From NCBI RefSeq assembly GCF_011045215.1, contig NZ_CP049201.1: 64,000 nt of DNA; one strand, given 5' to 3'. The DNA is from Escherichia coli (GTDB lineage Bacteria > Pseudomonadota > Gammaproteobacteria > Enterobacterales > Enterobacteriaceae). The position numbers are program-made. Below, in pieces: positions 21,001 to 24,000 of this stretch. Each line of letters opens with the position of its first letter. Position 1 is the first letter of the stretch.

Positions 21001-24000
21001 CACTTGTTACTGGCGCTGCTCAGTAACCCATCTGCCCGGGAGGCGCTGGAAGCGTGTTCTGTGGATTTGGTTGCGCTCCGTCAGGAACTGGAAGCCTTTA
21101 TTGAACAAACCACACCCGTTCTGCCTGCCAGTGAAGAGGAGCGCGACACACAGCCGACGCTGAGTTTTCAGCGTGTACTGCAACGTGCGGTCTTCCATGT
21201 CCAGTCCTCCGGTCGCAATGAGGTTACCGGTGCAAACGTTCTGGTCGCTATCTTTAGCGAACAGGAGTCGCAGGCGGCATATCTGTTGCGTAAACATGAA
21301 GTCAGCCGTCTCGATGTGGTGAACTTTATCTCTCATGGCACGCGTAAAGACGAGCCGGCACAGTCTTCTGATCCTGGCAGCCAGCCAAACAGCGAAGAAC
21401 AAGCTGGTGGGGAGGAACGTATGGAGAATTTCACGACGAACCTGAATCAGCTTGCGCGCGTGGGCGGAATCGACCCACTGATTGGTCGTGAGAAGGAGCT
21501 GGAGCGTGCTATTCAGGTTCTCTGCCGTCGCCGTAAAAACAACCCGCTGCTGGTGGGGGAATCTGGTGTCGGTAAAACCGCGATTGCAGAAGGTCTTGCC
21601 TGGCGAATTGTTCAGGGCGATGTGCCGGAAGTGATGGCTGACTGTACGATTTACTCTCTCGATATCGGTTCTCTGTTAGCGGGCACAAAATATCGCGGCG
21701 ACTTTGAAAAACGTTTTAAAGCGTTGCTCAAGCAGCTGGAGCAGGACACTAACAGCATCCTGTTTATTGATGAGATCCACACCATTATCGGTGCGGGTGC
21801 AGCGTCTGGTGGTCAGGTCGATGCGGCTAACCTAATCAAACCGTTGCTCTCCAGCGGTAAAATTCGCGTAATTGGTTCGACAACCTATCAGGAGTTCAGC
21901 AACATTTTCGAGAAAGACCGTGCTCTGGCGCGTCGCTTCCAGAAAATTGATATTACTGAACCGTCGATCGAAGAAACTGTTCAAATCATCAATGGCCTGA
22001 AACCGAAGTATGAAGCGCACCACGACGTGCGTTATACCGCAAAAGCGGTGCGTGCGGCGGTAGAGCTGGCGGTGAAATACATTAACGATCGTCATCTGCC
22101 GGATAAAGCGATTGATGTTATCGACGAAGCGGGCGCTCGCGCACGCCTGATGCCGGTAAGCAAACGCAAGAAAACCGTAAATGTGGCGGATATTGAGTCC
22201 GTGGTGGCCCGTATTGCACGCATTCCAGAGAAGAGTGTTTCTCAGAGTGACCGCGATACCCTGAAAAACCTCGGCGATCGCCTGAAAATGCTGGTCTTCG
22301 GTCAGGATAAAGCTATTGAGGCGCTGACTGAAGCCATTAAGATGGCGCGTGCAGGTTTAGGTCACGAACATAAACCGGTTGGTTCGTTCCTGTTTGCCGG
22401 CCCTACCGGGGTCGGGAAAACAGAGGTGACGGTACAGCTTTCGAAAGCTTTGGGCATTGAGCTTCTGCGCTTTGATATGTCCGAGTATATGGAACGCCAT
22501 ACCGTCAGCCGTCTGATTGGTGCGCCTCCGGGATACGTTGGTTTTGATCAGGGCGGTTTGCTGACTGATGCGGTCATCAAGCATCCACATGCGGTGCTGC
22601 TGCTGGACGAAATCGAGAAAGCGCACCCGGACGTGTTCAATATTCTGTTGCAGGTGATGGACAACGGTACGCTGACCGATAACAACGGACGCAAAGCGGA
22701 CTTCCGTAACGTGGTGCTGGTGATGACCACCAACGCCGGGGTACGTGAAACTGAGCGTAAATCCATTGGTCTTATCCACCAGGATAACAGCACCGATGCG
22801 ATGGAAGAGATCAAGAAGATCTTTACACCGGAATTCCGTAACCGTCTCGACAACATTATCTGGTTCGATCATCTGTCAACTGACGTGATCCATCAGGTGG
22901 TGGATAAATTCATCGTCGAGTTGCAGGTTCAGCTGGATCAGAAAGGTGTTTCTCTGGAAGTGAGCCAGGAAGCGCGTAACTGGCTGGCCGAGAAAGGTTA
23001 CGACCGGGCAATGGGCGCACGTCCGATGGCGCGTGTCATCCAGGACAACCTGAAAAAACCGCTTGCCAACGAACTGCTGTTTGGTTCGCTGGTGGACGGC
23101 GGTCAGGTCACCGTCGCGCTGGATAAAGAGAAAAATGAGCTGACTTACGGATTCCAGAGTGCACAAAAGCACAAGGAGGAAGCAGCGCATTAATCTGATT
23201 GTTAAGTAGGTTGGTGAAGTCCGTAATCTCGAAAGAGGTTACGGACTTTTTATTTATGGGGTGGAGGAGGTTCAGACCCTTTTTTTGATGATGATGGTTA
23301 GTTGTTGATAATTAGTCCTGCTGGAAGGTAAGGATAAAAAAGGGTGGCAGCAGGAGAATGAGATGGTTTTGCTTTATTAACAACGGGCTAAACGTGTAGT
23401 ATTTGAGTTCACTGCCGTACAGGCAGCTTAGAAAAATTGTCGGCGCATTTTCCCATTAGTTGCAAAGTTCACTGCCGTACAGGCAGCTTAGAAATTCACA
23501 GGTAACATACTCCACCCGCCCACCATGTTCACTGCCGTACAGGTAGATAAAATGCGAAAAAAAAGCTCGTACTTTCGTTCGAGCTCTTCTTTAAATATGG
23601 CGGTGAGGGGGGGATTGACTCGCTTCGCTCGCCCTGCGGGCAGCCCACTCACTGCGTTCGTGGTCTGTCCAACTGGCTGCGCCAGTTGTCGAACCCCGGT
23701 CGGGGCTTCTCACCCCCCCTGGAGTGCATTATGCGAAAAAAAAGCTCGCACTTTCGTACGAGCTCTTCTTTAAATATGGCGGTGAGGGGGACCGCCTGAA
23801 ATAAATCTGACTTAATCCAGGGGTGTTATATAATTTCATTATAAACAATGTATTACACTTTTTGTTGTCCGATATTATCTAATGTATTCTTAGTGAAGCG
23901 AGAGACTAATGGCATACTGGATGGCATACCAGAGTGACGGGAATTAGCGTATGGCAGTATTGACGGATACGAAAGCAAGACATATCAAACCTGATGACAA

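What the first reader, a model, noticed from the sequence alone, without database searches (positions are those of the whole stretch)
23407..23554. Orphan type I-F CRISPR mini-array at the clpA side of the island
Two canonical I-F repeats and one degenerate terminal repeat flank two 32-bp spacers, with no cas genes anywhere in the window. Orphan I-F arrays at this clpA-infA position in E. coli have been reported to carry spacers matching I-F cas genes. Whether these two spacers (aattgtcggcgcattttcccattagttgcaaa and ttcacaggtaacatactccacccgcccaccat) do so cannot be decided without a search.
Basis: partly seen in the sequence, partly recalled or inferred. Interest (0 to 1): 0.5.

Follow-up and report, generated by a model that had tools for sequence, protein, structure and literature searches.

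The report
Orphan I-F CRISPR array, anti-cas1 spacer
This is the well-known cas-less type I-F CRISPR remnant that sits after clpA in most E. coli: its older spacer is the widespread spacer that matches the cas1 gene of that same CRISPR type, and its newer spacer matches nothing in any collection searched.

Summary
There are two identical 28-nt type I-F repeats (23407-23434, 23467-23494) and a degenerate terminal repeat (23527-23554). They flank two 32-nt spacers, directly downstream of clpA, and the window holds no I-F cas gene.

Spacer 2 (TTCACAGG...CCACCAT) is the common E. coli orphan-array spacer. It is identical in 1,432 of 5,426 complete genomes, including K-12 and REL606. It matches cas1f of I-F-positive strains such as LF82 at 30/32 bases, next to the canonical 5'-CC PAM. 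So the "anti-cas" reading holds for this spacer, and it is already published (Touchon & Rocha 2010; Almendros et al. 2016).

Spacer 1 (AATTGTCG...TGCAAA), the leader-proximal one, does not match any I-F cas gene. I found it nowhere: complete E. coli genomes, PLSDB plasmids, GenBank phages, IMG/VR, GTDB species genomes and JGI metagenomes were all negative.

Six other distinct orphan-array spacers sampled from related loci all hit cas1f, cas3f or csy3. Spacer 1 is therefore an exception to the rule, but its origin is unresolved, and the source lineage is poorly represented among complete genomes.

Verdict: a known kind of locus carrying one new, uninformative spacer. Low interest.

The parts
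23216..23249 (+). clpA intrinsic terminator (upstream boundary of the leader)
   Evidence: 15-bp stem followed by a T run (inverted repeat I2). The clpA ORF ends at 23193.
23250..23406 (+). CRISPR leader, with a sigma-70-like site at 23285-23312 (TTGATG-16-GATAAT)
   Evidence: The promoter-like match is 9 of 12, which is a consensus match only. The leader aligns along its whole length with the leader of the functional clpA-proximal I-F array of LF82. The last ~50 nt before repeat 1 are identical in all four loci aligned.
23407..23434 (+). I-F repeat 1 (canonical)
   Evidence: Rfam CRISPR-DR4, 50.1 bits, E 2.7e-10. Folds into a 5-bp stem with a 5-nt loop, -8.6 kcal/mol. Identical to the LF82 repeats.
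23435..23466 (+). Spacer 1 (leader-proximal, 32 nt, 41% G+C): no known protospacer
   Evidence: No match in 5,426 complete E. coli genomes, plasmids, phages, IMG/VR (25, 26, 76, 77), GTDB genomes (27; 28 plus 29 gave one 24/32 hit without a PAM in a Desulfotomaculum MAG, taken as chance) or metagenomes (31, 32). The best match to the LF82 I-F locus is 19/32, against a mean of 18.9 for shuffled spacers. The peptide-level scan is not significant.
23467..23494 (+). I-F repeat 2 (canonical)
   Evidence: Rfam CRISPR-DR4, 50.1 bits. Identical to repeat 1.
23495..23526 (+). Spacer 2 (leader-distal, 32 nt): anti-cas1f spacer shared with K-12 and REL606
   Evidence: 100% identical in 1,432 complete genomes. 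30/32 to LF82 cas1f (antisense strand) preceded by 5'-CC, with mismatches at spacer positions 4 and 6. The encoded peptide GGRVEYVTCE aligns to Cas1f residues 34-43, GGRVEYVTSE: BLOSUM score 46, against a maximum of 30 for peptides from shuffled spacer 1.
23527..23554 (+). Degenerate terminal repeat
   Evidence: 76% identical to the canonical repeat; Rfam 22.1 bits. The hairpin is kept through a G-U wobble, -6.6 kcal/mol. This GGTAG variant differs from O157 (GGCAG) and K-12-type (GACAG) terminal repeats.
23552..23790 (-). Downstream boundary: two copies of the serW terminator plus serW 3'-end fragment, bracketing an RtT-like element; the island junction is at about 23790/23791
   Evidence: 60-nt direct repeat at 23552-23611 and 23731-23790. 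RtT (RF00391) at 23598-23733(-), 46.3 bits against a gathering score of 45. Comparison with ETEC6335, where an intact serW follows. ARAGORN finds no tRNA in the whole window.

Best explanation
This is the cas-less remnant of the clpA-proximal type I-F CRISPR array of Escherichia coli. The literature calls it CRISPR3 (Touchon & Rocha), CRISPR4.1-2, or the 'orphan CRISPR4' array (Mojica group). It keeps an intact leader, two perfect repeats and a terminal repeat that can still form the Cas6f hairpin.

Its older, leader-distal spacer is the widespread anti-cas1 spacer. The published model runs as follows. The array is transcribed constitutively. It does nothing on its own. If DNA carrying a cognate I-F cas operon enters the cell, the incoming Cas6f and Csy proteins load the resident crRNA. 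The complex then binds the cas1f protospacer next to its CC PAM, and Cas2/3 degrades the incoming DNA. The I-F system therefore cannot establish itself.

The target carries two mismatches, at positions 4 (in the seed) and 6. Recognition of present-day E. coli cas1f alleles is therefore more likely to be weak interference plus priming than clean interference.

The newer, leader-proximal spacer 1 is a bona fide 32-nt spacer of unknown source. It most likely came from an unsampled mobile element. It could have been acquired while Cas1 and Cas2/3 were briefly supplied in trans during such an abortive invasion. Alternatively it could have been imported by recombination from the array of an I-F-positive strain.

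Shown here: the anatomy, the absence of cas genes from the window, the cas1f match with its PAM, homology of the leader, and the uniqueness of spacer 1. Inferred from the literature: transcription, crRNA loading, interference and priming.
For: Anatomy and repeat family. The repeats are identical to functional LF82 I-F repeats, and the position and orientation relative to clpA are the same. The leader is homologous to the LF82 leader, with a promoter-like site.

No I-F cas gene in the window.

Spacer 2 is the K-12/REL606 spacer. It matches cas1f at 30/32 with a CC PAM and a second cas1f allele at 29/32 with CC. cas1f is present in only 241 of 5,426 complete genomes.

The anti-cas rule was reproduced independently. 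Six other distinct orphan-array spacers were taken from 20 related loci (L001, L005-L007, L009, L011, L013, L014, L016, L020-L029; L001 and L024 carry only spacer 2). All six match cas1f, cas3f or csy3 at 29-31/32, five of them with CC.

Literature: Touchon & Rocha 2010 (PMC2886076) proposed the anti-CRISPR role. The reviews PMC5972030 and PMC8616872 summarise Almendros et al. 2016: native orphan arrays are constitutively expressed, they interfere with plasmids carrying I-F cas genes, and they acquire plasmid-derived spacers by priming.
Against: [quoted passage not shown]

Spacer 2 has a seed mismatch (position 4) to every E. coli cas1f allele examined, so efficient direct interference is not assured.

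Only 64 kb of the genome is visible, so a cas operon elsewhere, for example on a plasmid, cannot be excluded. Expression and function were not and cannot be tested here. I could not read Almendros et al. 2016 itself, so I do not know whether this exact spacer allele was among those tested.
Confidence: 0.88

Rival explanations
1. Inert relic. The array is simply what was left when the I-F cas operon was deleted. It has no present function, and spacer 2's match to cas1 only records the self-targeting event that selected for loss of cas (the Diez-Villasenor et al. 2010 view, as quoted in PMC2886076).
For: There are no cas genes in the window. Spacer 2 has drifted to 30/32 with a seed mismatch. 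The terminal repeat is degenerate and differs between lineages, as expected under drift.
Against: Both internal repeats are perfect and the last ~50 nt of the leader are identical to those of three other loci, including the functional LF82 leader. Anti-cas spacers of several independent origins are retained across E. coli. Touchon & Rocha argue that spacers should be lost quickly by repeat recombination if they were neutral. Interference by native orphan arrays was shown experimentally according to PMC8616872.
Confidence: 0.2
2. The array is not functionally orphan. It serves an I-F-type effector encoded outside the window, for example a plasmid-borne I-F system or an I-F3 CRISPR-associated transposon that borrows host arrays. 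Spacer 1 would then be an ordinary working guide.
For: Spacer 1 lies between two perfect repeats and looks like a normal recent acquisition. CASTs have been reported to co-opt defence arrays (PMC11300857, seen by title and abstract only).
Against: In E. coli the I-F cas operon lies between this array and serW, and that interval is empty here. An active cognate system would be guided against its own cas1 by spacer 2. In 5,426 complete genomes every cas1f match was chromosomal.
Confidence: 0.05
3. Spacer 1 is an anti-cas spacer after all, directed at an I-F cas operon too divergent from, or unsampled relative to, those searched.
For: Every other orphan spacer sampled is anti-cas. One reading frame of spacer 1 (FATNGKMRRQ) aligns weakly with Cas3f residues 958-967, LSWNGWMQRQ: score 24, which is the 95th percentile of the null.
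Against: The best match to the LF82 I-F locus is 19/32, which is chance level. Wobble-tolerant patterns covering all four open frames found nothing in 100,044 GTDB species genomes, IMG/VR or JGI metagenomes, apart from one chance-level hit in a Desulfotomaculum MAG. The peptide score is not significant after testing four frames.
Confidence: 0.07

Closest known systems
E. coli K-12 / REL606 orphan I-F array between clpA and serW (CRISPR3 of Touchon & Rocha 2010; CRISPR4.1-2 or 'orphan CRISPR4' of Diez-Villasenor 2010 and Almendros 2016)
   Same: Same locus, same leader, same repeat, same 32-nt anti-cas1f spacer (100% identical), a degenerate terminal repeat, and no cas genes.
   Different: K-12-type arrays have a single spacer. 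The window has one extra leader-proximal repeat-spacer unit (spacer 1) and a different terminal-repeat variant (GGTAG instead of GACAG).
Two-spacer orphan arrays such as E. coli ETEC6335 (NZ_CP122588.1; L009) and loci L026 and L028
   Same: Architecture leader-R-spacerX-R-spacer2-R', with spacer 2 in the terminal position.
   Different: There, spacer X (GCTGTATTCGGCAAATGAAGTGGATGTTGATG) is a second anti-cas1f spacer: 31/32 with a CC PAM, about 150-180 bp from the spacer 2 protospacer. In the window, spacer X matches nothing.
Functional I-F CRISPR-Cas locus of E. coli LF82 (clpA - array - cas1f cas3f csy1 csy2 csy3 cas6f - serW - array - infA)
   Same: Identical repeats, homologous leader, same chromosomal site and orientation.
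   Different: LF82 has the six cas genes and arrays of 9 and 22 spacers, and none of those spacers is spacer 1 or spacer 2. LF82 carries the protospacer of spacer 2 inside cas1f.

Membership tests
Type I-F CRISPR array (Rfam CRISPR-DR4 repeat class) | 28-nt repeat matching the I-F consensus GTTCACTGCCGxACAGGCAGCTTAGAAA | tested here: met
   RF01317 scores 50.1 bits twice (gathering score 35). The repeats are identical to the LF82 repeats.
Type I-F CRISPR array (Rfam CRISPR-DR4 repeat class) | Regular 60-nt period with unique 32-nt spacers | tested here: met
   Start-to-start spacing of 60 and 60. The two 32-nt spacers are unrelated to each other.
Type I-F CRISPR array (Rfam CRISPR-DR4 repeat class) | Repeat hairpin (5-bp stem, 5-nt loop) recognised by Cas6f, leaving an 8-nt 5' handle CUUAGAAA | tested here: met
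   The predicted fold is -8.6 kcal/mol for the canonical repeat and -6.6 kcal/mol with a G-U wobble for the terminal repeat. Cleavage itself cannot be tested here.
Type I-F CRISPR array (Rfam CRISPR-DR4 repeat class) | Leader upstream of the first repeat, homologous to that of a functional array | tested here: met
   Alignment with the LF82 leader; the last ~50 nt are invariant across the four loci aligned.
Complete type I-F CRISPR-Cas system | Adjacent cas1f, cas2/3f, csy1-3 and cas6f genes | tested here: not met
   tblastn of the LF82 Cas proteins against the window gives only chance hits. The interval between the array and the serW remnant is empty.
E. coli orphan anti-cas array (Touchon & Rocha 2010; Almendros et al. 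2016) | Located between clpA and serW/infA in a genome lacking I-F cas genes | tested here: met
   clpA is 20902-23193 and serW terminator and 3'-end remnants lie at 23552-23790. No cas gene in the window. The rest of the genome is not visible.
E. coli orphan anti-cas array (Touchon & Rocha 2010; Almendros et al. 2016) | Spacers match I-F cas genes next to a CC PAM | tested here: inconclusive
   Spacer 2 meets it: cas1f, 30/32, CC. Spacer 1 does not: 19/32 is chance level, and no hit anywhere.
E. coli orphan anti-cas array (Touchon & Rocha 2010; Almendros et al. 2016) | Constitutive transcription, and interference or priming against incoming cas-bearing DNA | not testable with these tools
   There is only a promoter-like consensus match. 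The functional evidence is literature on other strains.

The most novel reading that the evidence does not exclude
Spacer 1 is a natural scar of an abortive I-F invasion. A foreign element carrying an I-F cas operon entered this cas-less lineage. The resident anti-cas1 crRNA primed the incoming Cas1-Cas2/3. One spacer from the non-E. coli backbone of that element was inserted at the leader before the element was destroyed. That would be field evidence that orphan arrays keep growing without resident cas genes, and it would give a handle on the still unknown vehicle that spreads I-F systems among enterobacteria.
Probability: 0.25. Interest if true: 0.45.

Novelty: new member of a known kind. 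Interest (0 to 1): 0.2.

Why it matters
It matters little beyond confirmation. The locus is a textbook example of a CRISPR array that guards against its own cas genes, and the window's copy carries the same anti-cas1 spacer as K-12. The one new element is a leader-proximal spacer that breaks the 'orphan arrays hold only anti-cas spacers' rule and has no detectable source. If its protospacer were found on a cas-carrying mobile element, it would document primed adaptation into an orphan array in nature. As it stands it is one more 'dark matter' spacer in an under-sampled lineage.

Tried and rejected
1. Spacer 1 as an anti-cas spacer. A Hamming scan of the LF82 clpA-cydC region gave 19/32, against a mean of 18.9 and a maximum of 21 for shuffles. 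A BLOSUM scan of its four open frames against the six Cas proteins gave a best score of 24, the 95th percentile of the null. Rejected.

2. Spacer 1 as a self-targeting spacer. The best match in the window is 20/32, and there is none in 5,426 E. coli genomes. Rejected.

3. Spacer 1 against plasmids and phages. Only chance-level partial hits, 17-25 nt in length, at E about 3.

4. Wobble-tolerant patterns (N at every third base, two phases covering all four open frames and the I-F flipped-out positions). IMG/VR, GTDB genomes and JGI metagenomes all gave 0 hits, except one 24/32 hit without a CC PAM in a Desulfotomaculum MAG, consistent with chance. Exact 20- and 21-nt halves in IMG/VR gave 0 hits.

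5. Literature search for both spacer sequences: 0 papers. Almendros et al. 2016 is not held.

6. Finding the source strain or close relatives through exact protein look-ups. The two small ORFs overlapping the array are not on record. The island integrase is ubiquitous, and none of 10 loci has spacer 1. Ten contigs encoding the identical MacB are at most 99.26% identical over 10.4 kb, and none has spacer 1.

7. No complete E. coli genome shares the window's exact array allele. The best is 97.4% over 154 nt, and the core flank is at best 99.0% identical. Absence of spacer 1 elsewhere may therefore reflect poor sampling of this lineage rather than a very recent acquisition. Shigella assemblies are not in the E. 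coli collection.

Full report
**1. The observation**

Repeats 1 and 2 (23407-23434 and 23467-23494) are identical: GTTCACTGCCGTACAGGCAGCTTAGAAA. A third copy at 23527-23554 (GTTCACTGCCGTACAGGTAGATAAAATG) is degenerate in its 3' part. All three lie on a 60-nt period.

The two 32-nt spacers read exactly as reported. Rfam's CRISPR-DR4 model scores 50.1 bits for each canonical repeat (gathering score 35) and 22.1 bits for the terminal one. The repeat occurs twice in the window against 0.00 expected from shuffles.

Both the canonical and the terminal repeat fold into the 5-bp stem and 5-nt loop hairpin typical of I-F repeats. In the terminal repeat the stem is kept through a G-U wobble.

**2. Context**

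- clpA is 20902-23193 (NCBIfam PRK11034, 1694 bits). Its terminator is at 23216-23249.
- A sigma-70-like site lies in the leader at 23285-23312.
- The leader aligns throughout with the leader of the functional clpA-proximal I-F array of E. coli LF82. The last ~50 nt before repeat 1 are identical in all four loci aligned.
- In LF82 the order is clpA - array - cas1f - cas3f - csy1 - csy2 - csy3 - cas6f - serW - array - infA. Its repeats are identical to those in the window.
- In the window the terminal repeat runs directly into a copy of the serW terminator. tblastn with the six LF82 Cas proteins finds only chance hits anywhere in the 64 kb; the best cas1f 'hit' is spacer 2 itself.

The array is therefore orphan as far as the window shows.

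Downstream lie two 60-nt copies of 'serW terminator plus serW 3' end' (23552-23611, 23731-23790) around an RtT-like element. A genomic island follows, starting with a P4-type integrase (23951-25153). ARAGORN finds no tRNA in the window, so the intact serW must lie beyond the far end of the island.

**3. Spacer 2**

Spacer 2 is 100% identical in 1,432 of 5,426 complete E. coli genomes, including K-12 and REL606. A further 888 genomes carry it with one mismatch, O157:H7 among them.

In I-F-positive strains the same search lands inside cas1f. In LF82 the protospacer (L003 3517-3548, antisense strand) is TTCGCTGGTAACATACTCCACCCGCCCACCAT. It is preceded by 5'-CC, the I-F PAM, and matches at 30/32 with mismatches at spacer positions 4 and 6.

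At the protein level the spacer encodes GGRVEYVTCE, against Cas1f 34-43 GGRVEYVTSE. cas1f occurs in 241 of 5,426 genomes as two alleles: 201 genomes at >=99% identity to LF82 and 40 at about 96%. The second allele matches spacer 2 at 29/32, again with CC.

This is the published anti-cas relationship. Touchon & Rocha 2010 (PMC2886076) described it. Almendros et al. 2016, as summarised in PMC5972030 and PMC8616872, reported three things about native orphan arrays:
- they are constitutively expressed;
- they interfere with plasmids carrying I-F cas genes;

**4. Spacer 1**

The leader-proximal spacer, presumably the younger one, matched nothing:

| Collection or test | Result |
|---|---|
| 5,426 complete E. 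coli genomes | only 18-nt chance matches |
| PLSDB plasmids | chance-level partial hits only |
| GenBank phages | chance-level partial hits only |
| LF82 I-F locus (Hamming scan) | 19/32; shuffles average 18.9 |
| Cas proteins (peptide scan) | not significant |
| IMG/VR | 0 hits |
| 100,044 GTDB species genomes | one 24/32 hit, no PAM, Desulfotomaculum MAG |
| JGI metagenomes | 0 hits |
| Paper library | 0 papers |

The IMG/VR, GTDB and metagenome scans used patterns with N at every third base, in two phases. Together these cover all four open reading frames of the spacer and the flipped-out sixth positions of I-F guides. The single GTDB hit is consistent with my rough estimate of about 0.1 expected by chance.

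**5. Is spacer 1 unusual?**

I extracted orphan arrays from 20 related loci. Besides spacer 2 and its O157 variant they contain six distinct spacers, and all six match LF82 cas genes:

| Spacer (start) | Target | Match | PAM |
|---|---|---|---|
| TCGACGGGG... | cas3f | 31/32 | CC |
| GCTGTATTCGG... | cas1f | 31/32 | CC |
| TTCGTACTTAAC... | cas3f | 31/32 | CC |
| GGAACAATCTTG... | cas3f | 29/32 | TC |
| GTCAACCGAAAG... | csy3 | 31/32 | CC |
| TTCACTGG... (O157 variant of spacer 2) | cas1f | 31/32 | CC |

Spacer 1 is thus the only non-anti-cas spacer seen. [quoted passage not shown]

Two-spacer relatives exist (ETEC6335, L026, L028) with the layout R-X-R-spacer2-R'. In them X is a second anti-cas1f spacer whose protospacer lies about 150-180 bp from that of spacer 2. 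This fits primed growth of orphan arrays.

**6. Caveat on uniqueness**

- No complete E. coli genome shares the window's array allele; the best is 97.4% over 154 nt.
- The 11.4-kb core flank is at most 99.0% identical to any complete genome.
- Contigs encoding the identical MacB are at most 99.26% identical.

The source lineage is therefore poorly sampled in the collections available, and Shigella is not in the E. coli set. Absence of spacer 1 elsewhere does not show that it is very recent.

**7. Mechanism**

Shown here:
- an intact leader with two perfect repeats and a foldable terminal repeat;
- no cas genes in the window;
- a cas1f protospacer with a CC PAM for spacer 2.

Inferred from the literature: the array is transcribed and is silent on its own. 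When I-F cas genes arrive, it supplies a crRNA that turns the incoming Csy complex and Cas2/3 against the incoming cas1f.

The seed mismatch at position 4 suggests priming-type recognition rather than efficient direct interference for present-day alleles. That point rests on general knowledge of the I-F seed (positions 1-5, 7, 8) and was not tested here.

The origin of spacer 1 is unresolved. There are three candidates:
- trans-supplied (primed) adaptation during an abortive invasion;
- import by recombination from an I-F-positive strain's array;
- survival from a former cas-positive stage.

**8. Verdict**

The locus is a known kind, essentially the K-12 orphan array plus one extra spacer of unknown source. 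Interest is low (0.2).

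Noticed in passing
window 23552-23790 (RtT-like element 23598-23733, minus strand): A 136-nt element matches Rfam RtT (46.3 bits, gathering score 45). It is bracketed by two 60-nt direct repeats, each made of the serW terminator plus the 3' end of tRNA-Ser. ETEC6335 has two such units followed by an intact serW, and PGAP annotates them as 'RtT sRNA'. It looks like a tRNA-linked repeat family at serW, analogous to the tyrT-rtT repeats.
   Followed up: partly
window 1-64000; junction at about 23790/23791: ARAGORN finds no tRNA gene in the whole window. serW is replaced at its usual place by a 14-nt 3' fragment (TGGCGGTGAGGGGG) abutting island DNA. The island therefore extends more than 40 kb, beyond the window end.
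   Followed up: partly
window 23951-25153 (+): P4-type tyrosine integrase (400 aa) at the left island end. Exactly the same protein is very common in public assemblies. It is found both next to clpA/serW and in a second context next to pgaA and a GGDEF gene, which I presume (not checked) to be the serX site.
   Followed up: partly
window 37027-38766 (+) and 39319-48639 (+): A two-partner secretion or contact-dependent-inhibition-like pair in the island. The first is a ShlB/FhaC-type transporter (Pfam ShlB 1.6e-109, with POTRA domains). The second is a 3,106-aa filamentous-haemagglutinin/CdiA-like protein (TIGR01901 and TIGR01731 repeats). The toxin tip and any immunity gene were not examined.
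   Followed up: partly
window 53423-63108: A dense cluster of insertion sequences: IS66 transposase (53423-54925), IS21 istA/istB (59122-60768 and 58350-59348), IS4 (60821-62236) and IS3/IS2-type (62287-63108). There is also an OmpX/Ail-like outer membrane protein at 52297-52854 and an ECs1377-family protein at 35248-35871.
   Followed up: no
window 12000-23406: This core region (ybjD to clpA) is at best 99.0% identical to any of 5,426 complete E. coli genomes, and at best 99.26% identical to contigs encoding the identical MacB. The source lineage is poorly represented and could be a Shigella or a rare E. coli lineage.
   Followed up: partly
L009 (ETEC6335), L026, L028: In these two-spacer orphan arrays the leader-proximal spacer targets cas1f about 150-180 bp from the spacer 2 protospacer, on the opposite strand. 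This is the pattern expected if orphan arrays grow by priming from spacer 2.
   Followed up: partly
L005 (E. coli FDAARGOS_1289, NZ_CP069882.1) 507-774: This orphan array has the anti-cas3f spacer TCGACGGGGTGCGGTAAAACCTTTGCGAACGC duplicated in tandem. Several other loci have a G-to-A change at repeat position 1 (ATTCACTG...).
   Followed up: no
search results (E. coli genomes): One spacer-2-like match lies on a plasmid, and a few records have two places each. A few genomes might therefore carry both an anti-cas1 spacer and a cas1f target, or a duplicated locus.
   Followed up: no
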